A DNA stretch of 64,000 nt from Oligoflexales bacterium (lineage in GTDB: Bacteria > Bdellovibrionota_B > Oligoflexia > Oligoflexales > RGVZ01): NCBI GenBank assembly GCA_044236265.1, contig JBIIGV010000233.1, positions 5,889 to 69,888 of the forward strand, read 5' to 3'. This document shows positions 14,821 to 64,000 of this stretch, piece by piece. The position numbers were made by a program, and so were the translations under genes. The notes below the pieces were generated by a model that had not been told where the DNA came from, made no database searches, and saw only the letters and a program-made list of their open reading frames with translations. The first letter of the stretch is position 1; each line of letters starts with the position of its first letter.

Positions 14821-14837
14821 GTCTTCAAAGGAACCGA

Positions 14838-25712: not shown

Positions 25713-25981
25713 ATTTGGAACGATTTCCACTAACCGAAAATTCTTATTTTCTTCCGCATGGTTTGCACCGCTTTTTATTAAAATTCAGATGGGTAGATCT
25801 GGAATATTTGCAGAGCCATTATGCGCTCTAAAGTCCTATTTTGACTTTTAAAATCAGGTACTTTTGCGCTAGTGGGAAAGGCCTGCGATTCTTGATGGGC
25901 CCATATTTCCTTGTTAAAATTAAGATATCGAAATCTCTAAGAATTGCGAATTTGGTTTTGTATCTCAAACTCGAGAGTTGA

Positions 25982-27691: not shown

Positions 27692-27748
27692 TTTGGGCTG
27701 GGGGCGGACCAACTGTGATTAAGGGCGCAAGTTGGTGAAATTCATAAC

Positions 27749-27775
27749 TATAATAGGAAATGCTTAAGCATTCCT
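27749..27775 (+). promoter_or_regulatory. Consensus -10 box followed directly by a 21-bp near-perfect palindrome, upstream of the giant gene
   Basis: TATAAT at 27749-27754. The palindrome is AGGAAATGC-TTAA-GCATTCCT at 27755-27775. No good -35 element is present (TTGGTG lies only 11 nt upstream). Confidence 0.3.
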
Positions 27776-27830
27776 GTAGTTTGCCGAATCCCTCCTAGTA
27801 CGGGCGTGAGAACTAATTCGGGTAGTGCTA

Positions 27831-30800
27831 ATGTTTCTCAAACGACTGAAATTTATGGCGCAGTTCAAAGCTGGTCAAGCTTTGCTATCTATTGTCATAT
27901 TCAGTTTCCTACTCTCCTGTGAATCCAACTTTTCGGGTAAAGTCCTTAACTCCAATAGAAAAAATAATCCATTTGCTACGGCAAATCTGTTGGAGGGTCA
28001 GGTTGCGTTTAAAACAACAAAGTTGTCGACAAAAGCACGCGGAACTCGCCTTTCTGGAGAAGCCTGTACCGATCAAGCAACGGTCTACTTGACACACTTT
28101 GCCACATATCAAGACAGCTTAGTTATTGAGGTTCGCAAACGCATTCTATCGGTTAAGGCCGATAGCGATGGGCGCTTTAAATTTACGAACTTGAAAGAAC
28201 AGGGCGTAAATCTTCAGTCAAAAAATGATATTTATAAGGTGGAAGCAGAGCGTTGCAGCGACTACTACTCAAGGGTCGTGACAGGAGCGCAGGAGCAAAA
28301 CCTAAGTGCAGCTGGTACCGCATTTGACTTCACACTCGACAAAACTGTTATCAAAGCAAGTCTTGGATCAGACGACTTTTACGCCAAACTGGAGGATTTG
28401 GATAAACTGTACAGTCTTGCTGACACTCGCAACTCGGTCGAAGGTGTATTGGAAACACTTCGCACGAGTCGTGAAACACAAAAATCATATAGCAATATTT
28501 TTGGTGCTGAAGATGTCACTCTTCAGAATATCGAACCCCGAATTGTAATTGAGTCCGTACCCCTTAAAATTCCCGCAACTATTCTGACCCGTTTTGAAGT
28601 TTTAGCTGTTTACTATTCCGCCGAATTCAATGTCGATTATCGGTGGAAGTTAGACGGCGAAGTTGTCAGCACTGACCCTGGGTTTAGTTGGCGCCCGACG
28701 TCGACCCAGCTCGGTCTGCACACTATCGAGTTGAGTGTTGGGGTGCGAAGCCAGTTTAACCTGGACGCATACCTTAACTCTAAGATCATGAATTACTCGA
28801 TCAATGTTGTTGAAGCAACCTCCGATCCACGAACGCCCGTCGTGTCGAGTTTTGCTTTGGCTAACGCCGCGGCTGGTGGATTTATCAATAATGCTCATGC
28901 TTCGGACGCAGAAGCTGTCGCAAGTTTGGTTGCCACCAATTATGATCAAGCCTCATATGCAATTGTCGCCCCGAACGTCACTTGCAATGAGTCTACGTCA
29001 TTCCCGCTTGCTTCGATCCCGACTTTTGGAAGCTTTACAGTAGATGGAAGTTACAAAGTCTGTGCAAAGGTTTCGCGAAGTGATGGGGGCACTGTTTACG
29101 TAGCAACTCAAACGTTGCAACGGGATGTTGTGATACCATCCGTGAGCTTTGTCGATGTGTTGCCCAAGGCTGGATCGACGAACCCGAAGCCGACAATCAA
29201 AGGAACGGCATCCGAGGCATCTTTAGTCTCTCTGTACTACGATGCAAGTTGTTCTTCTGCGAAGTCTTCAGCAACGGCAAACACAGTTTTTGCGTCACCA
29301 GGAATGACCGTTGCATCTGATGTTAATTTAAACAATACGACGACAATCTATGCGCAGGCGGTTGATCCGGCTGGAAACCCATCGCCGTGCTCTTTGATGT
29401 TGACGTACACCCACGACGACGTAACGCCCATTGTTAAAAATATCAAAGCTAATGTGGCCGATAATGGCTACAAGGCTGGCGATGTTATCCCGATTGAAGT
29501 GGAATTCTCTGAGCCAGTAAAAGTAACTGGCGTGCCGACTTTGACTCTTGAAACAGGATCGTCTGATGTTGTGGTTAATTACACATCTGGATCTGACACC
29601 AAGTTTCTGATTTTCAACTTTACGGTCGGATCAAACCAGACAGCTGCGGACCTCGACTACATTTCAGCGACGGCTCTGTCTGCTTCCGGTGGTAGTATTC
29701 AGGATCAAGTTCAAACTGATGCAGTCCTAACATTGCCAGCCCCTGGGGCAGCTGGCAGTTTGTCGGCAAATAGTAACATTCTGATTGATACGACCATACC
29801 AGTAGTCACATATGCGTCGATCTCTCCTTCGTCCCCAGGTACAAGTCTGACACCAGCCGTATCGATGTCTCTAAGTGAAAACGCGACCGTGACCTTATAC
29901 GGTAACAGTAGCTGTTCGGATGCAATTTCATCGGCTACGGCCCTGTCGGGAACCGGTTTACAAGTTATTACGACGAATACGCTCGCAGCTAACGCTGCGA
30001 CAACGATCTTTGCCCGCGCCGTTGATGGTGTGACAAATCAGTCTGTTTGTCACAGTATGATTGTCTATACGCATGACAATATTGCGCCAACCGTCGCGTC
30101 TTTTGCGAGATCATCTGGCCAAAATTCATTCACTAATTCCGTACCAATAAATTTTGGCGTTCAATTTTCTGAAGTGATCGACCCATCAACATTCACGGCA
30201 AGTGATATTTCTAACACGGGTACTGCGACCGATATCGTTTGGACTGTTACGGACTCTGGTGATCACCGCAACTTTGTTGTAGCTGCGACGCAATCTGGAA
30301 ACGGTACATTAAAGCCATCTTTTGCAGCGACTGCGGTGAGTGATCCGGCAGGGAATGCAATTCAGTCCATTTCGACGTCATCTAATGACGTGGCATATTC
30401 TATCGCCCTATTCACTGTAACGTTGAATCAAACAGCTGGGCAGGTTGATCCTGCAAACTCGTTGCCGATATCGTTCACAGCCGTGTTCTCTGATGAGGTG
30501 GGTACAGGTCAGTTTGTCGCTCAAGATATTGTTCAGCAGGGCACTGCTTCAGGAATCACCTGGAATTTGGCAACTACGGATAATATCACATGGACGATCA
30601 CAGCGACTGCGATAACGGGTCAGGGAACCGTCGTTCCTCATATTCCTCAAGATGCAGTTTTAGACCGCTACGGAAACAAAAATGGTGCGTCAACTCACAC
30701 AGATAACTCCGTGGTTTATGACATTACGGCTCCGACGATCACATTTACAAATCTTACTCCAGCAAACCCTTCTTCGGAGCTGCGTCCAACGCTCAAAGGT

Positions 30801-60800: not shown

Positions 60801-63800
60801 GCGGTTGCAAACGTTCAGCTTTACTCAAACTCTGGCTGTAGTGCTGCGGTGTCAACGGCTACGGCCGGAACTGCTGGCGCTAATACGATTACAACGTCCG
60901 CACTCAGTGCGAATACGACGACGAACCTATTTGCTCAAGCAAGCGATGCCGCTGGTAACCAATCGGCATGTACCTCGATGACAGCCTATCTTCATGACGG
61001 AGTGGCTCCTACGGTGCAATCTGTAACTGCTACGGCAGCCAACGGCACATACCGCGTCGGTCAGACGATTCCAGTCACGGTTACTTTCAGTGAGGCTGTG
61101 ACGGTCAGTGGAACTCCACAGTTGACCCTTGAAACAGGAGCGACCGATGCAGTCGTGAACTATGCTTCAGGATCTGGCACGGCCACTCTGACCTTCAACT
61201 ATGTTGTTGGTCTCAATGATAGTTCAGCAGATCTTGATTACACGTCGACGGCAGCTCTTGCTCTTAATAGCGGCACAATCGCCGACGCTGCTGCTAACAA
61301 TGCCACATTGACTCTGCCAACTGTTGGCGGCGCTGGAAGCTTGGGAGCTAATAAAGCACTTGTCATTCAGACCACTCCTCCAACGGTCACCTACAACTCG
61401 ATCTCTCCAAGTTCGCCAAACAGTAGTCAGACACCAACAGTAACCATGACTCTATCTGATGCGGCTACCGTGACTCTCTATAGCAATGGCGGATGTTCGA
61501 CGGCGATTTCGGCTGGCGCTGCTCTCTCTGCAGGATCTGGCCAAACAGTGACGACCTATACTTTGAGTCCAAACGTTACGACTCAGATTTTCGCCCAAGC
61601 GGTCGCCGCCTTCGGCAATACCTCTAGCTGTACAAGCCTCGTGTCCTACACCCATGATAATGTTGCGCCAACAGTGTCGAGCTTTGTCAGAGCGACGTCG
61701 CCTGTTCAGGCACAGTTTACAAACTCGGTACCCGTTAACTTCAAGATCACCTTTAGCGAGGCGATTAACTCAGGAAGCTTTACGGCATCGGATATTATCA
61801 ATACGGGAACTGCATCCGGCGTAACCTGGACGGTTTCAAATAGCGGAGACAATATTAACTTTACAGTTGCGGCGTCGGCTTCTGGAAACGGAACCTTGAT
61901 TCCTCGACTGGCGGCGAATGCTGTCACGGATTCTGCAGGTAATAATAACGGTAGCCAGTACGATGCGACCGAGTCCGTAAGTTACACAGCAGCTCTATAC
62001 ACTGTGACTGTAAACCAGGCGTCGGGTCAGGCTGATCCAGTCAATAGCTTGCCAGTGAACTATACTGTCGTCTTCTCAAGTGCAGTAGGTAGCAGCTCGT
62101 TTGCTGTCGGCGATGTAACCAACATTGGATCGGCCTCCGGTGTGACATGGACGCTAACAGACAGTGGCGACGGCATCACCTGGAACCTGTCTGCGACGGC
62201 AACGGGTGCTGGAACTATTATTCCATCGATAGCAGCCAACACAGTTAAAGATGCATTCGGCAACGACAATGCCGCAGCCACAACAACGGATCGCACGGTC
62301 ACTTACGACAATGTTGTCCCGACATTCTCTTCGATCTCGGTCAGCCCAGCAGCAACATCGTCTAGCTTGACACCGACGATCCTCGGTACCGTCTCTGAAT
62401 CCTCGACGGTGACGTTATACTTCGATTCCGGCTGTACAACGCCGAAATCAGCAGCTGCAGCCAATACAGTCCTTGCCTCCCCCGGTGTCCAAGTTACGTC
62501 GAACGTTAACAGCAACACGACGACCACGATTTACGGTAAAGCGATTGATGCGGCTGGCAACGCATCTGCTTGTGCGACACTGGCGACCTATACTCACGAT
62601 GGTGTTGGGCCAACAGTCACCAATGTTTCTTCGACGGCGGCTGATGGCACCTATAAAGTCACAGCTGCTCAGACGATTCCAGTCACGATTACCTTCTCTG
62701 AGAATGTTGTTGTAACCGGAACCCCAACCATCACACTTGAGACTGGCTCTACGGACGCTGTGGTCAGCTTTAGCAGTGCATCTGGCAACACGATGACCTT
62801 CACGTACACGGTCTTCGCGGGTGATACGGCTACAGATCTTGATTACGTCGGTACCGGATCGCTTGTTTTGGCTGGCGGTACGATTAAAGACACTTACGGT
62901 AACAACGCAACTCTGACATTGCCAAGTCCGGGTGCTGCTAGCAGCCTCGCTGCGAACAAGGCCATCGTTATTGACACGGCGGCTCCAATGATTAGCTATA
63001 CATCTATTGCTCCAGTTTCGCCAGGTAGCTCTCTAACTCCACAAATCAGCATCAGCCTTTCAGAGGCTGTCTCGAGTGTCCAGCTCTTCTCTGATGGAAG
63101 CTGCTCAAGTTCTGCGTCAAGTGCATCCACGGGTTCTGCGGGTGCTAAGACGATTACCACAAGTGCACTGACCGCCAATGCGACCACGGCACTCTACGCT
63201 CAGGCAACGGACATTGTTGGAAACATCTCGAGCTGTTCGCTTATGACAAGTTATCGTCACGATGGTGCTGCGCCGACCGTATTGTCGGTCAGCTCGTCTT
63301 TGGCAAATGGTACTTACGGTTTGGGACAGGTGATCCCGGTTACCGTAACCTTCTCTGAGGTCGTCACCGTCACTGGTACTCCACAACTGACCCTTGAAAC
63401 TGGCGCAACTGATGCAGTCGTTAATTATGTGTCTGGTTCTGGCACGGCGGCTCTGACCTTCAACTACACGGTAGCAGTAGGTCATGGGTCAAGTGACCTC
63501 GATTACACAACCAATACCGCGCTTGCATTCAATGGCAGTACGATTGTAGATGGATCCGGAAATGCCGCGGTCCTGACGCTACCGGCCCCTGGTACTGGAT
63601 CAAGTTTAGCGGGTCAAAAAGCAATTGTGATCGACCTGGTCGCTCCAACGATTGCTTACAGCTCGATATCTCCTGCATCACCAGGCATGTCGCAGACGCC
63701 AACACTCACCATAACCTTGAGTGAGGCAGCAACGGTGACGCTCTACAGCAACAACTCATGTACAGCATCGATCTCGGCAGCGACGTCGCTCGCGAGTGGC

Positions 63801-64000
63801 TCGAGAACGATCACCACGAGCAACCTGACATCAGATACGGCGATATCGATCTACGCTATGGCAGTGGATGCTGTTAATAACGCCTCTGGTTGCGAAATCA
63901 TGACGTCATATACCTATGACAGTATTGCACCAGCAATCAGTAGCTTCTCAGTCAAGGTTCCACAGGTTGCTGTGACAAACTCTGTACCAGTGAACTTTAC
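27831..64000 (+). CDS. Giant repetitive surface lipoprotein (Ig/cadherin-like adhesin-type), 5' complete and 3' end beyond the window; at least 12,056 codons
   Basis: An in-frame TGA lies at 27807-27809 and the ATG at 27831. I translated 27831 to about 35230 by hand without meeting a stop. Fifteen junction codons between 30717 and 62304, and the final codons (63960 onward, PQVAVTNSVPVNF), are all in the same frame (coordinate mod 3 = 0). The ORF track lists no + strand ORF in this frame after 27691, which is expected only if the frame never meets a stop. The N-terminus MFLKRLKFMAQFKAGQALLSIVIFSFLLSC-ES is a signal peptide plus lipobox, with the Cys30 codon at 27918-27920. Confidence 0.9.
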   Translation, partial: MFLKRLKFMAQFKAGQALLSIVIFSFLLSCESNFSGKVLNSNRKNNPFATANLLEGQVAFKTTKLSTKARGTRLSGEACTDQATVYLTHFATYQDSLVIEVRKRILSVKADSDGRFKFTNLKEQGVNLQSKNDIYKVEAERCSDYYSRVVTGAQEQNLSAAGTAFDFTLDKTVIKASLGSDDFYAKLEDLDKLYSLADTRNSVEGVLETLRTSRETQKSYSNIFGAEDVTLQNIEPRIVIESVPLKIPATILTRFEVLAVYYSAEFNVDYRWKLDGEVVSTDPGFSWRPTSTQLGLHTIELSVGVRSQFNLDAYLNSKIMNYSINVVEATSDPRTPVVSSFALANAAAGGFINNAHASDAEAVASLVATNYDQASYAIVAPNVTCNESTSFPLASIPTFGSFTVDGSYKVCAKVSRSDGGTVYVATQTLQRDVVIPSVSFVDVLPKAGSTNPKPTIKGTASEASLVSLYYDASCSSAKSSATANTVFASPGMTVASDVNLNNTTTIYAQAVDPAGNPSPCSLMLTYTHDDVTPIVKNIKANVADNGYKAGDVIPIEVEFSEPVKVTGVPTLTLETGSSDVVVNYTSGSDTKFLIFNFTVGSNQTAADLDYISATALSASGGSIQDQVQTDAVLTLPAPGAAGSLSANSNILIDTTIPVVTYASISPSSPGTSLTPAVSMSLSENATVTLYGNSSCSDAISSATALSGTGLQVITTNTLAANAATTIFARAVDGVTNQSVCHSMIVYTHDNIAPTVASFARSSGQNSFTNSVPINFGVQFSEVIDPSTFTASDISNTGTATDIVWTVTDSGDHRNFVVAATQSGNGTLKPSFAATAVSDPAGNAIQSISTSSNDVAYSIALFTVTLNQTAGQVDPANSLPISFTAVFSDEVGTGQFVAQDIVQQGTASGITWNLATTDNITWTITATAITGQGTVVPHIPQDAVLDRYGNKNGASTHTDNSVVYDITAPTITFTNLTPANPSSELRPTLKGTVSEASIVTLYFDSSCSAAKSDAVANTVLPMPGLAPNIDVAADTMTPIYARAIDPAGNISVCTLMVNYNHDGTPPFVVSVGSTKADGFYKAGTVIPIAVNFSENVFVVGTPQITLETGSTDRVVNYSSGSGTPTLVFNYTVQAGDTAADLDYLDTSAFALNGSTIKDWVDNDAVMTLPSTGSATSIAGQKSIVIDTAVPAVSFVSISPVSPGMSRTPSVTVNVSENASGIALFSNPTCGSAISASIAGSSGNNTVVTNTLTADALTPIYAQVTDLAGNVSSCANMTGYQHDGTPAVVTSVSSSLANGTYGVGQVIPIEVSFSEVVYVNGTPFLTLETGATDAVANYASGSGTNKLTFNYTVVAGENTLDLELTSLSAINLNSGTIKDLAGNDSTVTVTPLAGGSSLSGQKAIVVDTTGPTLTYASVSPVPPATSRTPAVTMSLSEPAAVTLYSDSDCSAAISSSVSFAAGVGRTITTNTLTANATTPIFAKGIDAVNNASACTSMIVYTHDDTPPVVMSFARASSQIAQTNSVPINFTLTFSEPINPSSLTAGDISNIGNATGVTWSISNSGDNATFTVSAIAASNGTLQPRLAAASIADHAGNTNVAGADSPNNVGYFVAVLTVTMNQAAGQGDPVNGLPISYNVVFSGAVGANSFTTGDIVQNGTAGGITWTLSTTDNISWLLRATAIATPGTVIPSIAASSVIDEFQNQNAASTSTDNTVVYDITPPTLSFSSLTPSNPSQSMTPTIIGTASEPSTVTLYYDSGCSVAKSATVPNTSFASPGITPTGNVAADTATVIYGMATDTAGNISACTSLVSYVHDGTGPSVTSVTSTLADGPYKAGQVVPVFVNFNENVNLAGTLQLALETGAIDAVLNYVSGSGTSSLRFNYTVVAGDTSLDLDYVSSASLALLTGTLRDAVGNDAVLTLPAPGASGSMGANKALIIDTTAPTMTFSNTLPVSPGNTQTPQVTFTISENVPTVRLFTDNACSVGAAPASTGLMGSNTVTTSALPANTGTSLYVRSTDAAGNVSSCTLLTTYTHDGIPATVTNVSSSSTNGTYGVGNTVAIVVTFSEIVNVTGAPQLTLETGAIDGVANYVSGSGTTALTFNYVVSAGESSLDLDYGSTTALGLNGGTIRDRAVNNADLTLPAVGGASAIAAQKGIIIDTTAPTITYSSISPVPPSASMSAFVTLQVSEASTVTLYSNPGCSAAISSAKAMISGGDQMISTVNLPTNTSTTIYARAVDPVNNVSECTNMVVYTHDNIAPQVDSFTRAATQASYTNSLPMNFTLTFSEPIIPETLTGSDFVNMGTATAVTWGVADSGDHRTFTVSATASGNGTLRPRLASGAITDLAGIGNPLNATSDNSVNYSIAAFTVTVNQAPGQGDPVNSLPINFRVVFSGAVGSNSFTASDVVQNGSAEGVTWNLSTTDNITWTVSATAVNIQGTVIPFISPNTVLDEFGNNNAASTSTDSSVVYDIAAPVLTFASVTPSNPAATRTPTVLGTSSEPSTVTLYYDSDCSTAKSSAASNTVFASPGIALTSNVDADVTTTIYGRAVDVAGNVSICTSLVGYQHDGTSPTVTNVTSTLANGPYKAGQLIPIQVTFSEPVFVTGAMQLTLETGLSDAVVAYTVGSGTSTLTFNYTVAAGNTAADLDYVGTSALALISGTIKDSVGNDANLALPSPGSSGSLGANKSLWIDTTAPVLAFTSINPVSPGISQNPQVTFTVSELVPTLRLYTDAICSAAISGWNTGSAGANTIATSTLAGNVATSIFAQGTDPAGNTSNCTSLTTYLNDGLAPTVTGVTSTAADGTYGGGQVVPIKVDLSEVVFVTGTPQLTLETGASDAVVNYSSGSGTTSLIFNYTIVPGHDSVDLNYASMSALVANGGSIKDLAGNDANLALAALDAASSLASQKAIVIDTTVPVMSYVSISPVPPAQSQTPTVTFSLSEPSTVTLYRESGCSTAISSAIPLAAGPAQSITTNTLTSNAATTIFAKAIDTVTNPSECTQLVVYSHDNTSPAVSSFARNATQPAMTNSLPINFTITFSEPINPSSFVSTDLSNGGTATGVTWFINNTGDNQSFTVSVTNSGNGTIIPRLASGSIADIAGNTNSGITSASNSVNYSVAPYTVSVNQAPTQIDPVNTLPVNFRVVFSSAVGNNTFTPADIVQNGTATGITWSLSTTDNITWTVAATAISGGSGTVIPSIAENTVTDEFGNINGASTSTDNTVIYDVTPPVVTYSSLAPANPSSELRPSFLGSVSEISTVTLYYDGSCANARSATVPNTQFASPGITVNSNVTANNSTIIYAKAVDTANNESACTSLVSYLHDSIGPSVVSVSANIADGSYKAGMVLPITVTFTENVYVNGTLQITLETGTFDAVVNNSSGSGTDTLVFNYVVAPGEVTPDLEYSGSAALALISGTIKDAVGNNAVLTLPATGASGSLGLNKSIIIDTTAPTLTYTNIFPASPGNTQTPQVSLDLTEPVTVLRLYSDASCTAAISPASTGTIGPNTVTTNTLTANASTTIYGQGTDAAGNVSLCTLLTSYQHDGISPTVTSVSSSSANGSYGVGQTVAVTVVFSEPVLVSGTPQITLETGSSDAVVNMTTGTGTNTLTFNYTVRAGDTTGDLDYLSNAALALNGGIIKDPAENLAVLALPNTGGATSIAGQKNIVIDTTAPVITYQSVSPSSPAMSQTPTLTVTMSETATVTLYSNGSCSSAVSTPTVLNGGVGRTISTNALPANTTTTLYAKAVDPVNNVSSCSVMVVYTHDITSPTVSSFTRSAGQLASTNSVPVNFTLTFSEPINPNSFTAADISNFGTSTGVLWTVTNTGDNTSFIVAATVASNGTLQPRLASGGVTDVAGNSNFGNVNSSNTVNYFVAAYTVMVNQNDGQAESTNALPINFTVVFSGAVGNNTFDTSDIVQNGTASGITWSLSSSDGITWNLSATSILGDGTVIPSVAANTVVDEFGNNNGASTSSDNSVNYDVTLPIVAFSSVSPSNPAATLKPTIRGTVTESSTVALYYDSGCSTAKSSAMSNTVFASPGITVTGNVNANTTTAIYAKAVDAVGNVSSCTYLTTYNHDGIGPVVTGVNATMSDANYKAGQTIPITVTFNELVFVTGTPQITLETGSADAIVNYTSGSGTNTLTFNYIVFAGDTSADLDYISTTALTFNAGTIKDGVGNSATLTLAAPGSSGSLGANRAIIIDTTAPVITYNSIAPTSPGISLAPQLTLTLSEAVTAFRFYSDPVCSSPISSSASMGSGSNTRATDTLAANVVTTIYGQSVDQAGNTSLCTMLTSYRHDDVGPTVSSVTSTANNATYGVGAVIPVTVTFTEPVFVTGTPQITLETGVTDAVVNYSSGSGTSTLRFNYTVALGQNTGDLEYVGTSSLSLNSGSILDTAGNAVDLALPALGSAGSIAGQKNIVVDTTAPTLTYESIAPVSPGMSQMPIVTVALSEPANVTLYSDHTCSAAISGSTSLSSGSGQAITTFTLTSNTTTDIYGKAVDPVSNASSCLNLVVYTHDNVAPSVASFVRAAGQPSFTNSIPINFTMTLNEPVDVSTITASDISNTGTATGITWSVTSVSNTVFTVSATSSGTGTLIPRLANGSFQDVAGNVSISQFTASESVNYTASPFTVTINQASSQGDPSATDPVNFTVVFSRAVGSGSFTAADIVQNGSLGSITWTLTTSDDITWNLAASGMAATGTLIPSIASGTVVDLYGNSNAASTSTDNTVNFDITPPTLAFASLSPSNPAATLRPTIRGTASKASTVTLYYDVSCSTAKSAGASNTSFATPGITPTANVNSNTTTIIYAKAVDSLGNASSCTSLVTYSHDGVSPTVTGVSSTLANGPYKAGQLIPITISFTEVVTVTGTPSLTLETGAADSVVNYSSGSGTNTLTFNYTVFNGDTAADLDYVSSAALALNNGSIKDPVGNDATLTLPAPGALNSLGSNKNLVIDTTAPALTYTSILPVPPSSSSTPQVSLSSNEAATNLQLYSNSSCSTAISSPASGTVGGNVISSTGVNLNAPTTVYAQATDSAGNISTCTLMTTYVHDDVPPTITSVSSSSGNGTYRVGQSLAITATFSDPVTVSGVPQLAMETGAVDTVANYSSGSGSSTLTFTYTIALNDTSSDLDYAGTSALALNGGSIIDAAGNNAALTLPAPAGTGSLGAQKALVIQTAPPVLSYTSIAPTSPGTSRQPVVTLSVNEAATVTLYSDSGCGTAISTGTAISTGAGQTITAYTLPSNTGTSIYGKAVAAYGNTSACTNLVVYTHDNIAPTVTSFVKAAGQNSFTNSIPLNFTLTFSEPINASSFTVNDLMNIGTATGVSWEIVPVSSTVYTVSVTSAGNGSVTPQLVSGTVTDPAGNATANNYDSADTVNYTAAAFTVSVNQASGQADPVNVLPVSYTVVFSGAVGSSSFDVSDVTQAGTASGVTWGLSTADNITWTLTATAASSSGTIIPSIAADRVVDAFGNNNSAATSTDKTVTYDITSPTVTFASLSPANPSSSLTPTIRGTVSEASTVTLYYDVNCSTGKSAATASTAFASPGIVVNANVNSNTSTAIYAKAVDNVGNESSCTSLVSYTHDGVSPTITNVTSGLADGTYKAGQVVPVSLTFSEAVTVTGTPKISLETGATDAVVAYSSGSGTNTLTFNYTVFSGDVSADLDYISTTALALDGGTIRDHVGNNAVVTLPAPGTSGSLAANKALVVDTAPPSVTFTSISPVSPGSSRTPQLVVNTSEAMSDIQIYTDASCTTSVSSSQSAGVGSKSITTSPLPANAQSSLYAYGLDIAGNPSACTLMTSYLHDDLGATIAFVTSTSSNGTYGVGNQIVITVRFSEAVYVTGVPQLTLETGASDAVVNYASGSGTNTLSFNYNVLSGQSSVDLDYQSTTSLSLNSGTIKDVSGNNATLTLPTPGDSNSLAGQKDIVIDNTAPTITYTSISPPSPGISQTPTVTMDLSESATVTLYSDNTCTAAISNATLLSGGAGQTVTTISLTPNATTTIYAKGLDAVSNASTCTNLVSYVHDNTPPLASTFARASGQPALTNSLPINFTVAFNEPIAASSFTSADISNGGTATGTTWTVTAVSSNTYTIAATTANNGTLIPRIALGGVTDIAGNATTSMNNSSETVNYSTAALSVVINQAAGQADPVASGPITFTVQFSNPVNPGTFTAADIVQNGTATGISWALTTTDDTTWNLTASGMAGSGTVIPSIADTTVVDVFGNNNAASTSTDNTVTYDITAPSLTFSSLSPSNPGSTLTPSVRGTASKASTVTLYFDSLCSTSKSAATASTAFSSPGITLTGLVNSNTTTTIYAMAVDALGNASGCTQMVVYTHDGAPPTVTSISSTLADGYYMAGQLIPITVTFSENVTVTGTPNLALETGSTDATINYTSGSGSNVLTFNYTVAAGDTSSDLDFVGSSSLVLNGGTIRDVIGNNAILTLPAPGTAGSLAANKALVVDTAAPSLTYTSINPVSPNSSQTPQVTLVLSEAAQNVQLYSNPVCNNAISSSSVGSVGTNVITTTTLLSNATTSIFAKMTDLAGNDSFCVSMTNYANDMTAPGVSSVTSTSTNGTYVVGQTIPVSITFSENVYVTGTPQLTMETGATDTVADYASGSGTNTLVFNYVIALNDASLDLDYHSAGALGANGGTIKDLAGNNAVLTLASPGAASSLGANKAIVIQTTLPTISSASISPASPGSTRTPTVSMTLSDASTVTLYSNSDCSTAISAAKSLVAGSGQTVTTYTLASNVATQIYGKAVAAFGNTSVCTSLISYTHDDVAPFVSSFVRASGQNAFTNSTPVNFTLTLSESINVSTLTAVDISNAGTATNVVWSVASVSSSVFTISANSSDNGTIIPRLAANAVADPAGNTNVAQASATDTVSYTAATYTVTLNQATGQSDPINALPVNFTVVFSSAVGSSSFDVSDITQTGTASGITWTLASADQITWTLSVTAVTTPGSIVPMIASNRVVDEFGNQNGQSASTDNSVVYDTAAPVVTFSSVTPANPSSSLNPRFFGSVSEASVVTLYYDVSCTTAKSSATANTVFASPGILVTGAVNANTTTTVFAKAVDTAGNASVCTNIVTYTHDGIGPTVTDVTTGLANGSYKAGQAVPISVTFSEVVTVTGTPNLTLETGATDAVLAYSSGSGSNTITFNYTVFAGDTSADLDYVATTSLVANGGTIKDAVGNDATLTLPAPGAAGSLGGNKGVIIDTTAPSVSYTSISPVSPGATRTPQVTISLSEAASSVELFSDAGCSASVSAAAAAAAGSNTITTTNLTANGSTSLFAKMTDIAGNASSCSLMTSYTHDGNDPTVTVVSSTKADGTYGTGTLIPITVTFSENVYVTGTPRITLETGATDALVDYTSGSGTTTLTFNYTVGAGEASADLDYESTGALVLNSGTIKDLSGNNANLALPALASASSLAGQKAIVLDQTAPTITFTSINPVSPGMSQTPTLTLSLSEAATVTLYTDSGCSAAVSSATSLASGAGQTIATNSLNANVSTSLWAKGVDLVGNVGSCSSMVTYIHDSAAPTVSTFARAGGSPTNSLPVNFTLTFNEPINPASLTSADFTNAGTATGVAWSVTNSGDSTTFTVAATVSGNGTLQPRLASGGMTDVAGNANASAVTASNSVSYSVAAFSVAINQAAGQSDPVRTLPITFTAVFSDAVNPTTFDASDIVQNGTAGGITWNLSSTDNITWTITASGLGASGSVIPSIASSTVKDTFGNDNAASASTDNTVSYDITVPTFSSITVSPANPAATLTPTVLGVVSKASTVTLYYDSSCTTAKATPAANTVFATPGITVTGNVNPNTTTVIYGQAVDALGNTSLCTNLVTYTHDGAAPTVSGVSANLANGPYKAGQVVPVEVTFSENVTVTGVPQITLETGATDAVVTYTSGSGTNKLTFNYTVFAGDTSADLDYVATTSLALNGGTIKDSVGNNATLTLPAPGASGSLGASKDLVIDTTSPTLAYTSITPVSPGTTRTPQVALTISEGVTNIQLYSNALCNAAVSSAAAGTSGANTITTNNLTADNSTLIFAQATDAAGNASACTSMTSYTHDGTAPTITGVSSTSANGTYRVGQTIPVTVTFAENVYVTGTPSLLMETGSTDTAASYVSGSGTSTLTFNYVVALTDQSSDLDYQSAAALTVAGATIQDLAGNNATLTLAAPGATNSLADQKAIVIQTTKPTIAYTSISPASPGTSRTPTVSMTLSEAATVTLYTDNTCNTAKSAATALSAGAGQTVTSYTLTANAATDLYAQAVGAFGNTSLCTMLVSYTHDSIAPTVTSFVRASGQAAFTNSVPVNFTMTFSEAIDPALFTANDISNSGTANGVTWTVTNSGNNTTFTIAATSSGNGTLIPRLGVTGIADPAGNTNGSPYDTTQNVSYTAATFTVTVNQASGQADPVKTLPAQYTVVFSSAVGNSSFDVIDVSNSGTATGVVWGLATSDNITWTLTATSASSDGTIIPVIAQNTVQDEFGNQNGAATATDRSITFDSAAPTFSGPYTVSPANPSSSLTPTIRGVTSEASTVTMYYDSGCITPKSAGTANTAFVTPGITVNSNVNANGTTTIYAKAQDTAGNESSCTTIVATYTHDSMGPSVTNVTSSQSNGSYKVTAAQIIPISLTFSEAVNVTGTPTLTLETGATDAIATYASGSGTSTLVFNYTVFAGDTSSDLDYAGTAALALSGGTMTDAVGNNATLTLPAPGAAGSLGANKALIIDTTLPTVAFTSISPVSPGASLSPQVTINSSEAGSMELFSTSNCNSSISTAITGSVGANTIATNSLAPNASTSIFAKVTDAAGNASSCTSMTTYLHDGVDPTVTSVSSTAANGSYGTGQTMAITVSFSEVVYVTGTPNLTLETGATDAVINYASGSGTNTLTFNYTVASTHNSLDLDYESTTALLLNGGTIKDVSLNNAVLTLPTVGGVNSIAGQKAIVIDNVVPTITYTSMTPASPAMGLTPTLTMSLSEAATVTLHSDHTCTAPISVDTALSSGAGQTITTQALTANATTSIYAKAIDVVNNPSVCTSLTTYTNDSLAPTVVSFARAAGQGSVTNSVPVNFTITFSEDMSAASFTGADISNTGTATGVTWAVTQVSSTVFTVAASSANNGTLIPRLANASVTDVVGNATTAQADATNSVNLVNGGLTVTVNQASGQADPTNGSTINYTVVFSRAIDPTTFASDDIFQNGTATGLTWTITTSDNITFNLAASGMSATSTVIPSISSTRVKDTFGNDNAASTSTDNTVNYDVTAPTLTFASISPSSPASTLMPMVSGTASKPSTVTLYYDSGCSTAKSSAESNTVFALPGIALTANVSSNTATSIYGKAVDALGNASSCSALTTYTHDGISPTVTNVTAVHADGTFKAGELIPIKVTFSEAVTVTGTPRLTLETGSVDAVVNYTSGSGTAELTFNYTVFAGDTTSDLDYISTSALALNGGTIVDHVGNAASVTLPAVGGVASIAGQKSLVIDTTAPTVAFTSITPVSPSNNLTPAVALTLSETASDVRLYSDSGCSSALSNAANAAAGPYTITTTTLTANQTNNIYARTTDVAGNQSACTLMTNYAHDGVAPTVTSVSASSANGTYHVGQTVAVTVAFSEVVTVSGTPQLTLETGASDAVIDYVSGSGSNTLTFNYTVALSHASPDLDYTSTASLAANGGSVQDGSGNNATLTLPGVGGPNSIAGQKAIVIQTSKPTIAFTSITPSSPGTSQTPTVTMSLSDASTVTLYSDGGCSTAISAPTALSAGAGQSVITQTLAANGQTQIHAQAVAAFSNTSLCTSLVSYTHDNVAPSVTSFARAGGQVEFTNSVPANFSITFSEAINPASLTAADITNAGTAAGVTWTVTNSGNNTTFTVAASTAGNGTIQPRLAIGAVTDPAGNASGSQVDASNSVSYTQATFTVTLNQASGQADPVKTLPVLYTVVFSSPVGASSFTDADIQNQGSGTTVTQWQLETADNVTWTLKAMAVTGNGTIMPVITANSVQDAFGNLNGASTSTDRTVTYDTTAPTLTYVALTPANPSTSLMPTILGTASETSTVTLYYDGGCSTPKSVATANTQFATPGIAVTGNVNSNASTVIYAQAVDTAGNLSSCTSLVTYNHDGVGPTVTNVTSTASDGNYKVTNAQTIPVTVTFSEVVTVTGTPTLTLETGATDAVVSYSTGSGTNTLTFTYTVFAGDTAADLDYVSASSLVFNGGTVKDGVGNNATLTLPSPGAAGSLGANKAIIIDTTAPTIGFAVISPTSPATSQTPTVTVTLSEGLSAVQLFSDSSCTASASVSSNGSAGNKNIVTTTLNANATTSLYAKGTDIAGNVSICASLTSYTHDNAGPTVVSVTSSLANGTYGLGQVVPVAITFSEVVSVTGTPTLTLETGAVDGVASYVSGSGTNTLNFSYTVGAVDGTADLNYASTTALALAGGSILDASTNPADLTLPALANASSLGGQKAIVLDLTAPTITYASIAPTSPGTTATPTITMTLSEAATVTLYSNSGCSASISDAKALVSGVGQTITTNALTANTEISIYAKGIDTVNNASGCASLTTYTYDSVAPAVSSFAVAGGQVAVTNSVPINFTLTFSEAINPSSFTAADISNAGTATGVDWSVTNSGDNTSFTVSATLAGNGTIQPRLATASVADPAGNLNAAVSTATGSVSYSQAAFTVAINQASGQSDPVRTGPITFTAVFSSAVGSSTFSAGDVAQSGTAANVTFAVTSLDDITWTITASGMSGSGTVVPTIASNRVKDLFGNDNAASTSTDNTVSYDVTTPTLTFASVGSGNPGSSLTPTILGTVSKASTVTLYFDSGCSTAKSAPTANTAFASPGITLTGNVNANTSTTIYGKAVDSLGNETCSLLTTYNHDGAGPSVVSVAVNKANGSYKTGEVIPVQITFSEAVTVTGAPQITLETGATDAVVDYTSAASSTVLNFNYTVSPGDTTADLDYASTTALALNSGTIRDAVGNNATLTLPAVGGAASIGGNYAIVIDTTAPSVTYNSITPASPASNLNPQVALTLSEAVANVQLYSNSGCSAAVSTATAGTAGANTITTSALSANTTTNLFAQASDAAGNQSACTSMTAYLHDGVAPTVQSVTATAANGTYRVGQTIPVTVTFSEAVTVSGTPQLTLETGATDAVVNYASGSGTATLTFNYVVGLNDSSADLDYTSTAALALNSGTIADAAANNATLTLPTVGGAGSLGANKALVIQTTPPTVTYNSISPSSPNSSQTPTVTMTLSDAATVTLYSNGGCSTAISAGAALSAGSGQTVTTYTLSPNVTTQIFAQAVAAFGNTSSCTSLVSYTHDNVAPTVSSFVRATSPVQAQFTNSVPVNFKITFSEAINSGSFTASDIINTGTASGVTWTVSNSGDNINFTVAASASGNGTLIPRLAANAVTDSAGNNNGSQYDATESVSYTAALYTVTVNQASGQADPVNSLPVNYTVVFSSAVGSSSFAVGDVTNIGSASGVTWTLTDSGDGITWNLSATATGAGTIIPSIAANTVKDAFGNDNAAATTTDRTVTYDNVVPTFSSISVSPAATSSSLTPTILGTVSESSTVTLYFDSGCTTPKSAAAANTVLASPGVQVTSNVNSNTTTTIYGKAIDAAGNASACATLATYTHDGVGPTVTNVSSTAADGTYKVTAAQTIPVTITFSENVVVTGTPTITLETGSTDAVVSFSSASGNTMTFTYTVFAGDTATDLDYVGTGSLVLAGGTIKDTYGNNATLTLPSPGAASSLAANKAIVIDTAAPMISYTSIAPVSPGSSLTPQISISLSEAVSSVQLFSDGSCSSSASSASTGSAGAKTITTSALTANATTALYAQATDIVGNISSCSLMTSYRHDGAAPTVLSVSSSLANGTYGLGQVIPVTVTFSEVVTVTGTPQLTLETGATDAVVNYVSGSGTAALTFNYTVAVGHGSSDLDYTTNTALAFNGSTIVDGSGNAAVLTLPAPGTGSSLAGQKAIVIDLVAPTIAYSSISPASPGMSQTPTLTITLSEAATVTLYSNNSCTASISAATSLASGSRTITTSNLTSDTAISIYAMAVDAVNNASGCEIMTSYTYDSIAPAISSFSVKVPQVAVTNSVPVNF
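29125..30716 (+). repeat. First, shorter repeat unit of the giant gene (5 modules: A-B-A-C-D, about 530 codons)
   Basis: Translation gives A (VIPSVSFVDVLPKAGSTNPKPTIKGTASEASLVSLYYDASCSS...PCSLMLTYTHDDVTP), B (...YKAGDVIPIEVEFSEPVKVTGVPTLTLETGSSDVVVNYTSGS...ILIDT), A, C (..FTNSVPINFGVQFSEVIDPSTF..WTVTDSGDHRNF..) and D (..FTVTLNQTAGQVDPANSLPISF...SVVYD). Confidence 0.85.
30717..32972 (+). repeat. Super-repeat 1 (752 codons, modules A-B-A-B-A-C-D)
   Basis: Starts YDITAPTITFTNLTPANPSSELRPTLKGT. Approximate module ends are A 31025, B 31388, A 31685, B 32051, A 32345, C 32660 and D 32972. C-module motif WSISNSGDNATF. Confidence 0.85.
32973..35228 (+). repeat. Super-repeat 2 (752 codons)
   Basis: Starts YDITPPTLSFSSLTPSNPSQSMTPTIIGT. 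I translated it fully by hand, and the order is A-B-A-B-A-C-D. C motif WGVADSGDHRTF. Confidence 0.85.
35229..37487 (+). repeat. Super-repeat 3 (753 codons)
   Basis: Starts YDIAAPVLTFASVTPSNPAATRTPTVLGT. C motif WFINNTGDNQSF. Confidence 0.8.
37488..39743 (+). repeat. Super-repeat 4 (752 codons)
   Basis: Starts YDVTPPVVTYSSLAPANPSSELRPSFLGS. C motif WTVTNTGDNTSF. Confidence 0.8.
39744..41996 (+). repeat. Super-repeat 5 (751 codons)
   Basis: Starts YDVTLPIVAFSSVSPSNPAATLKPTIRGT. C motif WSVTSVSNTVF (the V-type variant, one residue shorter). Confidence 0.8.
41997..44249 (+). repeat. Super-repeat 6 (751 codons)
   Basis: Starts FDITPPTLAFASLSPSNPAATLRPTIRGT. C motif WEIVPVSSTVYT (V-type). Confidence 0.8.
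44250..46502 (+). repeat. Super-repeat 7 (751 codons)
   Basis: Starts YDITSPTVTFASLSPANPSSSLTPTIRGT. C motif WTVTAVSSNTYT (V-type). Confidence 0.8.
46503..48755 (+). repeat. Super-repeat 8 (751 codons)
   Basis: Starts YDITAPSLTFSSLSPSNPGSTLTPSVRGT. C motif WSVASVSSSVFT (V-type). Confidence 0.8.
48756..51005 (+). repeat. Super-repeat 9 (750 codons)
   Basis: Starts YDTAAPVVTFSSVTPANPSSSLNPRFFGS. C motif WSVTNSGDSTTF. Confidence 0.8.
51006..53261 (+). repeat. Super-repeat 10 (752 codons)
   Basis: Starts YDITVPTFSSITVSPANPAATLTPTVLGV (the PTFSS junction variant). C motif WTVTNSGNNTTF. Confidence 0.8.
53262..55523 (+). repeat. Super-repeat 11 (754 codons)
   Basis: Starts FDSAAPTFSGPYTVSPANPSSSLTPTIRGV. 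C motif WAVTQVSSTVFT (V-type). Confidence 0.8.
55524..57782 (+). repeat. Super-repeat 12 (753 codons)
   Basis: Starts YDVTAPTLTFASISPSSPASTLMPMVSGT. C motif WTVTNSGNNTTF. Confidence 0.8.
57783..60044 (+). repeat. Super-repeat 13 (754 codons)
   Basis: Starts YDTTAPTLTYVALTPANPSTSLMPTILGT. C motif WSVTNSGDNTSF. Confidence 0.8.
60045..62303 (+). repeat. Super-repeat 14 (753 codons)
   Basis: Starts YDVTTPTLTFASVGSGNPGSSLTPTILGT. C motif WTVSNSGDNINF. Confidence 0.8.
62304..64000 (+). repeat. Super-repeat 15 (partial; A-B-A-B-A and the start of C, cut by the window end)
   Basis: Starts YDNVVPTFSSISVSPAATSSSLTPTILGT. Module ends are marked by IDTAAP at about 62975, YRHDGAAP at about 63270, IDLVAP at about 63640 and YTYDSIAP at about 63935. 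The window ends inside ...VTNSVPVNF of the C module. Confidence 0.8.

What the first reader, a model, noticed from the sequence alone, without database searches (positions are those of the whole stretch)
27831..64000. A single reading frame of more than 36 kb (at least 12,056 codons) that the ORF track does not list
Frame 0 (coordinate mod 3 = 0) opens at the ATG at 27831, after an in-frame TGA at 27807, and is still open at position 64000. The track only reports ORFs that end in a stop, so the largest gene in the window is invisible there, while about 90 short shadow ORFs are listed over the same DNA. Even truncated, the product is around 1.2 MDa (12,056 residues at roughly 100 Da each, because the composition is rich in T/S/A/V/G/N). 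That places it among the largest bacterial proteins. It contains at least 108 complete beta-sandwich modules. If each is about 4 nm long, as is typical of Ig-like folds, the extended fibre would be roughly 0.4 micrometre, which is of cell-size order. Genes of this size are rare. The true length, C-terminal anchor or secretion signal, and function are unknown from this window.
Basis: partly seen in the sequence, partly recalled or inferred. Interest (0 to 1): 0.9.

Follow-up and report, generated by a model that had tools for sequence, protein, structure and literature searches.

The report
Giant lipid-anchored Ig-repeat surface fibre gene
The window holds the first 36 kb of a real, conserved gene of about 62 kb from an uncultured Bdellovibrionota-like bacterium; it encodes a roughly 2-MDa lipoprotein made of about 170 immunoglobulin-like domains with a propeller-shaped binding head, and is an extreme but recognisable kind of bacterial surface fibre or adhesin.

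Summary
The ATG at 27831 follows an in-frame TGA at 27807 and opens 12,056 codons with no stop up to position 64000. The product so far is 1,212.7 kDa. Chance probability is about 1e-237.

It is not an assembly artefact:
- the window has no exact repeat longer than 25 nt;
- the gene recurs in independent assemblies and in several species;
- dN is 0.13 against saturated synonymous sites.

The protein starts with a conserved lipoprotein signal (Cys30) and a roughly 400-aa N-terminal region. Then come exactly 108 Ig-like modules of three types in strict order (ABACCAB)n, giving a 752-aa super-repeat.

In a conspecific strain (99.1% nt) the gene is called at 20,621 aa. In close relatives it ends in about 13 RCC1 propeller blades plus one Ig domain. 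No RTX, LPXTG or T9SS signal is present.

A rare outer-membrane beta-barrel gene (25982-27691) has 11 hits, including the query itself, among 5.8 billion proteins. It sat directly upstream of the giant gene in all six contexts checked.

Best reading: a lipid-anchored surface fibre about 0.7 µm long with a distal binding head. It works like Leptospira Lig proteins or giant RTX adhesins but belongs to neither family. It is a new variant of a known kind, of moderate interest.

The parts
27831..64000 (+). 5' 36,170 nt (12,056 codons) of the giant gene; the frame is still open at the window end
   Evidence: There are 0 stops. The same gene is called at 19,351 aa or more, 7,282 aa or more, and 20,621 aa in conspecific contigs. 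Against species L096, dN is 0.13 with saturated synonymous sites.
27831..27920 (+). Lipoprotein (SPII-type) signal peptide MFLKRLKFMAQFKAGQALLSIVIFSFLLS|C; the Cys30 codon is at 27918-27920
   Evidence: It matches the PROSITE-style lipobox rule and is the only hydrophobic segment in 12,056 aa. Cys30 and the following [E/D]-S-[N/K]-F-S-G motif are invariant in 4 species.
27921..29135 (+). Non-repeat N-terminal region (aa 31-435). It holds a roughly 300-aa base domain and then one roughly 100-aa domain of a further type.
   Evidence: No Pfam, PDB or PHROG match. phmmer against 1.84 billion representatives gives two groups of hits. Query residues 20-320 (protein aa 50-350) align once, at the N-terminus of dozens of other large proteins. 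Query residues 300-405 (protein aa 330-435) align to a domain repeated up to 32 times in other proteins. All four hits that were read also begin with a lipobox.
29136..63923 (+). Uninterrupted array of 108 Ig-like modules in the order (A-B-A-C-C-A-B)n: 47 A (about 94 aa, 2 Cys each), 31 B (about 127 aa), 30 C (about 107 aa). This is 15.4 super-repeats of about 752 aa.
   Evidence: 94 Cys, which is 2 for each of the 47 A modules. The AlphaFold2 model of one unit is all-beta with pLDDT 84.5. Foldseek matches multi-Ig chains. The consensus B and C modules reach Pfam Big_5 just above its cut-off, and A gives only a weak Big_13 hit.
63924..64000 (+). Start of the next (109th) module, cut by the window end
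   Evidence: The last complete module ends at aa 12,031.
60876..63140 (+). Representative complete super-repeat (unit 15), used for the alignment, the structure model and the searches
25982..27691 (+). Partner gene, 569 aa: signal peptide, conserved N-terminal domain with 2 Cys, Pro-rich linker, and a C-terminal outer-membrane beta-barrel that ends in Trp
   Evidence: It has only 11 hits in 5.8 billion proteins, the query itself included. All six contexts checked place it directly upstream of a giant gene (P0208 lies on the contig of L012). In the AlphaFold2 model, residues 344-569 form 10 long antiparallel strands with pLDDT mostly 70-92. Foldseek's best match is OpcA, followed by other outer-membrane barrels.
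22521..25712 (+). Three upstream ORFs of 341, 304 and 423 aa. The first has a lipobox, the second has a Cys-containing signal-like N-terminus, and the third ends in Phe as outer-membrane barrels do. They are linked to the giant gene only within the genus, so they are probably not core parts.
   Evidence: No Pfam hit even at E<=1. They are present in L096-L099 but absent upstream of the gene in L016, L093 and L094. In L097 the inversion breakpoint lies between them and the partner gene.

Best explanation
This is the 5' part of a real gene of about 62 kb for a secreted, N-terminally lipid-anchored giant fibre protein of an uncultured, probably Bdellovibrionota/Oligoflexia-like, Gram-negative bacterium.

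Shown:
- a Sec/SPII signal peptide with an invariant lipobox cysteine;
- a conserved base region of about 400 aa;
- an uninterrupted chain of Ig-like beta-sandwich modules in a fixed seven-module super-repeat.

Shown in close relatives, and inferred for this strain:
- about 25 super-repeats (roughly 170-175 modules) in total;
- a distal end made of about 13 RCC1 blades, enough for two seven-bladed propellers, plus one terminal Ig domain.

Inferred mechanism:
- The precursor is exported by Sec.
- It is acylated on Cys30, and the two cysteines of every A module form disulfides outside the cytoplasm.
- The chain projects from the cell as a stalk of up to about 0.7 µm that presents the RCC1 head, so that it can bind a ligand on another cell or on a particle.
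- The co-inherited outer-membrane beta-barrel protein encoded 139 nt upstream is proposed to hold or pass the base of the fibre at the outer membrane.

Functionally it is an adhesin or 'fishing line'. Its role in predation or attachment is unproven.
For: The gene is real.
- 12,056 codons have no stop, with P about 1e-237.
- The window has no exact repeat longer than 25 nt and no megablast self-hit. Units are only 54-64% identical at the DNA level.
- Independent assemblies from JGI, ENA and Logan carry the same gene at 98.9-99.1% nt identity.
- Between strains, codon differences run 114 synonymous to 24 nonsynonymous.
- Against another species (L096) the proteins are collinear and 81.6% identical over 3,287 aa, with dN 0.13 and pS 0.77, which is saturated.

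Length.
- One conspecific contig,621 aa, and by arithmetic the call ends 68 nt inside the contig.
- Another,351 aa or more and runs exactly to its contig end.

Lipoprotein.
- The lipobox and Cys30 are conserved in 4 species.
- The N-terminal base domain recurs at the N-terminus of other large proteins, and all four that were read have lipoboxes.

Extracytoplasmic location.
- Every one of the 47 A modules has exactly 2 Cys.
- No further hydrophobic segment occurs.
- pI is 4.08.

Ig-like chain.
- AlphaFold2 gives an all-beta unit with pLDDT 84.5, and Foldseek matches titin and other multi-Ig chains.
- The same (ABACCAB)n order is found in six relatives.

RCC1 head.
- The C-termini read in L015, L017 and L097 carry it. 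L097's flanks are 93.5% nt identical to the window.
- Pfam RCC1 scores 6.8e-134 and the RCC1-like domain model 3.7e-137.
- A small lipoprotein, P0026, has the same plan of lipobox, B modules and RCC1.

Partner.
- It is rare and always adjacent, and it has an outer-membrane barrel fold.
- The partner and the giant gene lie together beyond an inversion breakpoint in L097.

Surface-like diversity.
- Strain divergence is 0.1-0.3% in the flanks but 2-7% across 24-32 kb.
Against: - There are no expression, lipidation or localisation data.
- The C-terminal 8,565 residues of this species were not read. The 20,621-aa figure is a gene call plus arithmetic. That call carries no Pfam record, although an RCC1 end should give one if it was searched.
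- The residue after the lipid-modified Cys is acidic (E or D) in all four species. In E. coli that would mean retention in the inner membrane (own knowledge), which makes surface display harder to explain.
- No known route for moving a 2-MDa protein across an outer membrane is encoded nearby. No T1SS, T2SS or T5SS genes lie in 27.8 kb upstream or in relatives' flanks.
- A barrel of about 10 strands is narrow for a conduit.
- The N-terminal half of the partner is modelled poorly.
- Taxonomy rests on helicase hits of only 38-39% identity to named Oligoflexia and Bdellovibrionota, plus one 49% hit of the repeat unit in an Oligoflexales MAG.
Confidence: 0.66

Rival explanations
1. The long frame is an assembly artefact (repeat expansion or a chimera) or a decaying pseudogene, not one functional gene.
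For: Every short-read contig that carries the gene breaks inside it. One scaffold has a 100-N gap in it.
Against: - There is no exact repeat longer than 25 nt and no megablast self-hit, so nothing could collapse or expand.
- There are 0 stops in 36 kb.
- The same collinear sequence appears in independent assemblies and in other species.
- dN/dS is far below 1.
- Module order is perfectly regular, without gaps.
Confidence: 0.02
2. It is an RTX-type giant adhesin in the manner of LapA, MpIBP or SiiE. Such a protein is exported C-terminus first by a type I secretion system and held in the outer membrane by an N-terminal retention module.
For: It is very large, acidic and built of tandem Ig-like domains with a distal ligand-binding region. 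That is the general plan of those adhesins (own knowledge).
Against: - The N-terminus is a cleavable lipoprotein signal, which T1SS substrates lack.
- The window has 0 RTX nonapeptide motifs, and the C-termini of L015, L017 and L097 have 0-1. There is no HemolysinCabind hit, and the chain ends in an Ig-like domain.
- No ABC transporter, membrane-fusion protein or TolC gene lies in the flanks.
Confidence: 0.04
3. It is an envelope-internal or inner-membrane-anchored structural protein, for example a periplasmic or sheath scaffold. Alternatively it is a cell-surface lattice or motility protein like the cyanobacterial SwmB, rather than a projecting adhesin.
For: - An acidic residue follows the lipidated Cys in all four species. 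That is the inner-membrane retention rule in E. coli (own knowledge).
- Some homologues of the B module are named SwmB-domain or 'beta strand repeat-containing' proteins.
- No export machinery is linked to the gene.
Against: - A chain of about 170 domains ending in a propeller head is a stalk-plus-head design.
- The Pfam SwmB model does not hit the two 1,500-aa stretches tested, and NCBIfam returned no match for the unit.
- Diversity concentrated at the locus fits exposure to the outside.
- Sorting rules for the residue after the Cys differ between bacteria (own knowledge).
Confidence: 0.15
4. The fibre is released from the cell by cleavage or shedding, and acts as an extracellular matrix or aggregation polymer rather than as a cell-bound adhesin.
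For: Leptospira LigA, a lipoprotein with an Ig-like array, is released in truncated form (PMC7821625). Nothing tested here bears on whether the fibre stays attached.
Against: The lipobox and the motif after it are strictly conserved, and an outer-membrane partner is co-inherited. Both argue that attachment matters.
Confidence: 0.1

Closest known systems
Leptospira Lig proteins (LigA, LigB, LigC)
   Same: Both have an N-terminal lipoprotein signal, a chain of tandem bacterial Ig-like domains and then a different C-terminal region. Lig proteins are surface-exposed adhesins (PMC7821625). This is the closest match for how the giant protein is probably anchored.
   Different: Lig proteins have 12-13 Big_2 domains and about 1,200-1,900 aa. 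Here there are at least 108 modules (about 170 in full) that are not Big_2, arranged in a seven-module super-repeat, with an RCC1 head and a dedicated barrel partner. No sequence relationship was found.
Giant RTX adhesins exported by type I secretion (LapA, MpIBP, SiiE, BapA)
   Same: Both are megadalton, acidic stalks of about 100 or more Ig-like domains that carry ligand-binding domains far from the cell. MpIBP is about 1.5 MDa and about 0.6 µm long (own knowledge).
   Different: Those proteins have no signal peptide, carry C-terminal RTX repeats and a T1SS signal, and have linked ABC/MFP/TolC genes. All three features were tested here and none was met.
Inverse autotransporters (intimin, invasin; type Ve secretion)
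   Same: The order of parts is the same if the partner gene and the giant gene are read together: signal peptide, periplasmic domain, outer-membrane beta-barrel, Ig-like passenger array, C-terminal binding head (family plan from own knowledge).
   Different: Here the barrel and the passenger are two separate proteins, and the passenger has its own lipoprotein signal. The partner has no Pfam hit at all, which includes the inverse-autotransporter barrel model. Intimin and invasin are not among the top 50 fold matches.
RCC1-type and other large or giant bacterial proteins surveyed by West-Roberts et al. 2023 (bioRxiv 10.1101/2023.11.21.568195)
   Same: It falls in their 'large' class (over 10,000 aa), is predicted to be extracellular and carries RCC1 propellers. 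They propose adhesion to other cells as the common role.
   Different: The Oscillospiraceae proteins are RCC1 along their whole length. The Omnitrophota giants have many transmembrane regions, SecA-like domains and neighbouring T2SS-like loci. This protein has one lipid anchor, an Ig-like stalk, RCC1 only at the tip, and a single barrel partner.
SwmB of marine Synechococcus
   Same: It is a cell-surface protein of more than 10,000 aa made of one kind of repeat. Some homologues of the B module carry the SwmB-domain name.
   Different: The Pfam SwmB model does not hit the two 1,500-aa stretches tested, and NCBIfam returned no match for the unit. SwmB has no lipobox, RCC1 head or barrel partner to my knowledge.

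Membership tests
Bacterial lipoproteins (SPII substrates) | N-terminal signal peptide with a positively charged n-region, a hydrophobic core and a lipobox [LVI][ASTVI][GAS]C with an invariant Cys | tested here: met
   MFLKRLKFMAQFK-AGQALLSIVIFSF-LLSC matches the PROSITE-style rule. The Cys is invariant in 4 species.
Bacterial lipoproteins (SPII substrates) | Actual acylation and cleavage by Lgt, LspA and Lnt | not testable with these tools
   This needs palmitate labelling or globomycin sensitivity.
Tandem bacterial Ig-like (Big) domain surface proteins | Repeated beta-sandwich domains of about 90-130 aa | tested here: met
   The AlphaFold2 model is all-beta with pLDDT 84.5. Foldseek matches multi-Ig chains. 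The consensus B and C modules reach Big_5 at 26.2 and 26.6 bits against a cut-off of 23.6, and A gives only Big_13 at 15.7 bits, below its cut-off.
RTX / T1SS giant adhesins (LapA, MpIBP, SiiE) | C-terminal RTX nonapeptide repeats and an uncleaved T1SS signal, with no N-terminal signal peptide | tested here: not met
   There are 0 RTX motifs in the window and 0-1 in relatives' C-termini. Pfam gives no HemolysinCabind hit. An SPII signal is present. The C-terminus of this exact strain was not read.
RTX / T1SS giant adhesins (LapA, MpIBP, SiiE) | Adjacent ABC transporter, membrane-fusion protein and TolC-like genes | tested here: not met
   None lie in 27.8 kb upstream or in relatives' flanks.
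Inverse autotransporters (type Ve) | Barrel and Ig-like passenger in one polypeptide, with the barrel matching the inverse-autotransporter barrel family | tested here: not met
   There are two separate genes 139 nt apart. The partner has no Pfam hit at E<=1. Its fold matches generic outer-membrane barrels, OpcA first.
SwmB-type repeat proteins | Match to the Pfam SwmB domain (PF13753) | tested here: not met
   No SwmB hit in two 1,500-aa stretches. NCBIfam also returned no match for the unit.
RCC1-like propeller proteins | Seven-fold RCC1 blade repeats | tested here: inconclusive
   The test is strongly met in the C-termini of relatives L015 and L097 (6.8e-134; 12 regex-matched blade motifs in L097). 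The corresponding part of this strain lies outside the window.
T9SS or LPXTG-anchored giant adhesins | C-terminal T9SS sorting domain, or an LPXTG motif with a hydrophobic tail | tested here: not met
   There is no LPXTG and no hydrophobic tail in relatives' C-termini. Pfam gives no T9SS domain.

The most novel reading that the evidence does not exclude
The partner gene and the giant gene form a previously undescribed two-protein export and anchoring system, a 'split inverse autotransporter'. A dedicated small outer-membrane barrel carries a periplasm-spanning linker and a periplasmic domain. It threads or clamps the base of a 2-MDa lipoprotein that stays acylated in the inner membrane, as its conserved acidic residue after the Cys would suggest. 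The fibre is then rooted through the whole envelope and needs no T1SS, T2SS or T5SS. This would be a new way of displaying lipoproteins and megadalton proteins on a Gram-negative surface.
Probability: 0.15. Interest if true: 0.85.

Novelty: new variant of a known kind. Interest (0 to 1): 0.55.

Why it matters
- Size. At about 20,600 aa and about 2.1 MDa (20,621 residues at 100.6 Da each), this would be one of the largest proteins predicted outside Omnitrophota. It is also unusually clean: one anchor, one stalk grammar and one head.
- Secretion. It shows that a giant adhesin-like fibre can be built on a lipoprotein signal instead of the usual type I secretion signals. That raises a concrete, testable question of how a megadalton lipoprotein reaches or crosses the outer membrane, and it names a candidate helper protein with only 11 hits, itself included, in 5.8 billion sequences.
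- Annotation. It is a reminder that ORF lists which require a stop codon hide the largest genes. Short-read metagenome assemblies also nearly always truncate them.
- Protein evolution. The array is old, since units are 54-64% identical in DNA yet orthologous across species. That makes it a good system for studying how very long repeat proteins stay stable.

Tried and rejected
- Pfam and NCBIfam scans of the N-terminus, of a full unit and of the four upstream ORFs gave nothing above the curated cut-offs.
- Sequence searches of PDB with the unit profile, the N-terminus, the partner and the 423-aa ORF gave nothing meaningful.
- PHROGs showed only that the B-type module also occurs in a phage protein family.
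- Tandem Repeats Finder sees nothing, because the period is longer than 500 nt and the copies are too diverged.
Its nearest hit was an Oligoflexales MAG at 49%.
- I could not read the 3' 26 kb of the gene in this species. Loci are limited to 10 kb around a looked-up gene, and no other gene lies beyond the giant gene on the 463-kb contig.
- A lookup with the 421-aa start variant of the third upstream ORF found nothing.
- P0026 and P0040, which carry RCC1, were checked as possible C-terminal fragments of this gene. They are different, smaller proteins.
- The promoter and terminator scan of 22.3-28 kb was not above chance.
- I considered a LysM-like periplasmic domain in the partner from reading its sequence. 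No model supports it and AlphaFold2 confidence there is low, so I do not claim it.
- I make no claim of predation, because taxonomy is only approximate.
Full report
**1. The observation**

Translating from the ATG at 27831 gives 12,056 codons with no stop up to position 64000. The nearest upstream in-frame stop is the TGA at 27807. Over the same DNA the other five frames contain 395-845 stops each. With the local base composition, the chance of 12,056 stop-free codons is about 1e-237.

The ORF tool omits this frame because it runs off the window. It lists 69 short ORFs of at least 60 aa over the same stretch. The translated part weighs 1,212.7 kDa, with a mean residue mass of 100.6 Da and a pI of 4.08.

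**2. It is not an artefact**

- The whole window has no exact repeat longer than 25 nt and no megablast self-hit.
- The super-repeats are only 54-64% identical in DNA and 50-68% identical in protein. An assembler therefore had nothing to expand or collapse.
- The same locus is present in independent JGI, ENA and Logan assemblies at 98.9-100% nt identity.
- Between conspecific strains, codon differences in the gene are 114 synonymous against 24 nonsynonymous. A second strain gives 65 against 15.
- Against a different species (L096) the protein is collinear and 81.6% identical over 3,287 residues. dN is 0.13 and synonymous sites are saturated.
- Orthologous units across species (72% nt) are more alike than paralogous units within the gene (mean 58% nt). 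The array therefore predates the species split and is kept by purifying selection.

**3. Anatomy within the window**

*Signal peptide.* Residues 1-30 form a lipoprotein signal peptide, with lipobox LLSC and Cys30. This is the only hydrophobic segment in the 12,056 residues. In four species the Cys and the following [E/D]-S-[N/K]-F-S-G...N-N-P motif are invariant.

*N-terminal region.* Residues 31-435 are not part of the repeat. They match no Pfam, NCBIfam, PHROG or PDB sequence. An exhaustive phmmer search of 1.84 billion representatives gave two groups of hits:
- Protein residues about 50-350 align once, always near the N-terminus, to dozens of other large proteins.
- Protein residues about 330-435 align to a domain that other proteins repeat up to 32 times.

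All four hits that I read also begin with a lipobox. This is a recurrent 'base' module of lipid-anchored multi-domain proteins.

*The array.* From residue 436 to 12,031 there are exactly 108 contiguous modules:
- 47 of type A, about 94 aa, each with exactly two Cys;
- 31 of type B, about 127 aa, with the motifs ETG...DLDY...D.AGN;
- 30 of type C, about 107 aa.

They stand in the strict order (A-B-A-C-C-A-B)n, which gives a super-repeat of about 752 aa.

*Fold.* An AlphaFold2 model of one unit, built on the 15-unit alignment, is all-beta with mean pLDDT 84.5. Foldseek against PDB returns chains of Ig-like domains such as titin I65-I70, mastigoneme and LILRB3. The consensus B and C modules just pass the Pfam Big_5 cut-off. 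A gives only a weak Big_13 hit. These are divergent bacterial Ig-like domains.

**4. What lies beyond the window**

*Length.* In a conspecific 463,464-bp ENA scaffold (99.1% nt identity to the window) the gene is called at 20,621 residues. From the reported coordinates the call ends at record position 69, which is 68 nt inside the contig. It therefore appears to end in a real stop. In a 257,870-bp JGI contig of the same species the call of 19,351 residues runs exactly to the contig end and is truncated. I could not read this DNA, so 20,621 aa is a gene call plus arithmetic, not a verified sequence.

*C-terminus in relatives.* I could read the C-terminus in three relatives: L015 and L017 (a related species) and L097 (flanks 93.5% nt identical to the window). 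In each, the regular array is followed by one or two aberrant modules. Next come about 13 RCC1 blades, with Pfam RCC1 at 6.8e-134 and the RCC1-like domain model at 3.7e-137. A final Ig-like domain of about 90 aa and a stop close the gene. There is no RTX repeat, LPXTG motif, hydrophobic tail or T9SS domain.

*Size estimate.* The (ABACCAB)n grammar is identical in six relatives. By proportion the full protein has about 25 super-repeats and about 170-175 modules. Its mass is about 2.1 MDa, taken as 20,621 residues at the 100.6 Da mean measured. At about 4 nm per Ig-like domain (own knowledge) the extended stalk would be about 0.7 µm. That length is an inference.

**5. The neighbourhood**

*The partner gene.* The 569-aa ORF at 25982-27691 lies 139 nt upstream of the giant gene. 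It has only 11 hits among 5.8 billion clustered proteins, the query itself included. In all six contexts checked it lies immediately upstream of a giant gene that runs into the contig end. These are:
- the window and its conspecifics;
- L096;
- L093, where a 100-N scaffold gap splits the gene call;
- L094/L095;
- L016;
- P0208, on the contig of L012.

*Partner structure.* It has a signal peptide and a conserved N-terminal domain with two invariant Cys. The linker is Pro-rich here and a long Ala/Glu/Lys-rich segment in distant relatives. A conserved C-terminal domain of about 225 aa ends in Trp. AlphaFold2 models that domain as 10 long antiparallel strands with pLDDT mostly 70-92. The N-terminal half is of low confidence. 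Foldseek matches outer-membrane barrels, with OpcA best, followed by FadL, OmpT, OmpG and autotransporter barrels.

*Other upstream ORFs.* The three ORFs at 22521-25712 are conserved only within the genus. In L097 the homology with the window stops 74 nt after the third of them, and the giant gene then appears in the opposite orientation. This suggests that the partner and the giant gene move as a unit.

*Secretion genes.* No T1SS, T2SS or T5SS genes lie in the flanks here or in relatives.

**6. The organism**

Proteins from the window are found in NCBI, JGI, ENA and Logan metagenome assemblies. The DinG-like helicase has unnamed relatives down to about 50% identity. Its best named relatives, at 38-39%, are Oligoflexia, Bdellovibrionota and Bdellovibrio. 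The only GTDB representative with a similar repeat unit is an Oligoflexales MAG, at 49%. The source is therefore probably a deep-branching, uncultured Bdellovibrionota-like bacterium, with moderate confidence. I make no claim about predation.

**7. How it most likely works**

Shown:
- a Sec/SPII-type lipoprotein signal;
- a conserved base region;
- a long chain of Ig-like modules carrying paired cysteines;
- an RCC1 head in relatives;
- a co-inherited outer-membrane barrel protein;
- strain-level diversity concentrated on this locus, at 2-7% against 0.1-0.3% in the flanks.

Inferred: the protein is exported and acylated at Cys30. It folds outside the cytoplasm and forms a stalk of about 0.7 µm that presents a propeller-shaped binding head. 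It would act as an adhesin or capture line, and the barrel partner would hold or pass its base at the outer membrane.

The weak point is the route across the outer membrane. The residue after the lipidated Cys is acidic in all species, which in E. coli signals inner-membrane retention (own knowledge). No known secretion system is linked, and a barrel of about 10 strands is narrow.

**8. Comparison with known systems**

- *Leptospira Lig proteins.* They share the plan of lipoprotein signal, Ig-like array and distinct C-terminal region, and they are surface adhesins (PMC7821625). The domains here are not Big_2, and the scale is more than ten times larger.
- *Giant RTX adhesins.* It also works like these, with a megadalton Ig-like stalk and a distal binding region. 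It fails each of their defining features that I tested: there is a signal peptide, no RTX repeats and no linked T1SS genes.
- *Inverse autotransporters.* Read together, the partner and the giant gene reproduce their order of parts, but as two proteins and without any match to that barrel family.
- *Size class.* By the terms of West-Roberts et al. it is a 'large' protein (over 10,000 aa), not a 'giant' one (30,000 aa or more). They report such proteins in many phyla, an RCC1-only class in Oscillospiraceae, and sizes up to 85,804 aa.
- *P0026.* This small lipoprotein has the same lipobox, B-module array and RCC1 plan. The design therefore recurs at ordinary size.

**9. Verdict**

It is a new variant of a known kind, namely giant repetitive surface fibres or adhesins. 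Four things are new:
- the lipoprotein anchoring at this scale;
- the fixed seven-module grammar;
- the RCC1 tip;
- the rare dedicated barrel partner.

Interest is moderate at 0.55, because very large repetitive surface proteins are well documented. The most novel reading not excluded is a two-gene export and anchoring system for a megadalton lipoprotein. I give that a probability of about 0.15.

Noticed in passing
window 42831-63140 (units 7-15): Units alternate between two classes. Identity between a unit and the next but one is 62.9%, against 57.2% between neighbours. This gives a higher-order period of two units (about 1,504 aa, 14 modules), and suggests that the distal array grew by duplicating two-unit blocks.
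   Followed up: partly
window 24000-32400: Divergence between conspecific strains is 0.1-0.3% at 12-23 kb. It rises to about 2% over the 423-aa and 569-aa genes and to 4-7% in the first super-repeats of the giant gene. Most of the changes are synonymous. This looks like a recombination or diversity hotspot at a surface locus.
   Followed up: partly
L097 17013-22406 (ENA ERZ27280207 k141_3562168, 411 kb): In a close relative (flanks 93.5% nt identical), homology with the window stops 74 nt after the 423-aa gene. The giant gene is then found inverted, with its RCC1 C-terminus facing that gene. The call is 10,267 aa and runs to the contig end. This is either a natural inversion of about 64 kb covering the partner and the giant gene, or a misjoin.
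   Followed up: partly
L001 and L002 ends (window about 28221-28237); L003, L004, L093-L096: Every short-read contig breaks inside the giant gene, although the window has no exact repeat longer than 25 nt. Two contigs break only about 390-400 nt after the start codon. Strain microdiversity is a more likely cause than repeats.
   Followed up: no
window 42831-45086 (B modules) and hits P0001-P0120: The B-type module of about 127 aa occurs at 55-68% identity in proteins attributed to very different phyla, including Ramlibacter, Planctomycetota, Cyanobacteriota, Gaiellaceae and a Lokiarchaeota MAG. It is combined there with dockerin, FG-GAP, lamin-tail or RCC1 domains, and it also hits a phage family, phrog_30287, at E=3e-30. 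That identity is unusually high for an Ig-like module spread so widely.
   Followed up: no
window 8918-17087 and 22521-27691: Eight sizeable ORFs of 304-787 aa have no significant Pfam hit even at E<=1; two of them give only very weak sub-threshold matches. The lineage is poorly covered by current family libraries.
   Followed up: no
window 17231-21105: A 505-aa ORF with a weak GIY-YIG nuclease match overlaps by 49 nt the start of the 801-aa DinG/XPD-like helicase gene. The pair is conserved in all relatives examined.
   Followed up: no
L016 1541-4468; P0206-P0208: In more distant relatives the partner protein is about 970 aa. Its N-terminal domain is duplicated, and the Pro-rich linker is replaced by an Ala/Glu/Lys-rich segment of about 300 aa that looks like a coiled coil. 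The linker varies in length and type while both end domains are conserved.
   Followed up: partly
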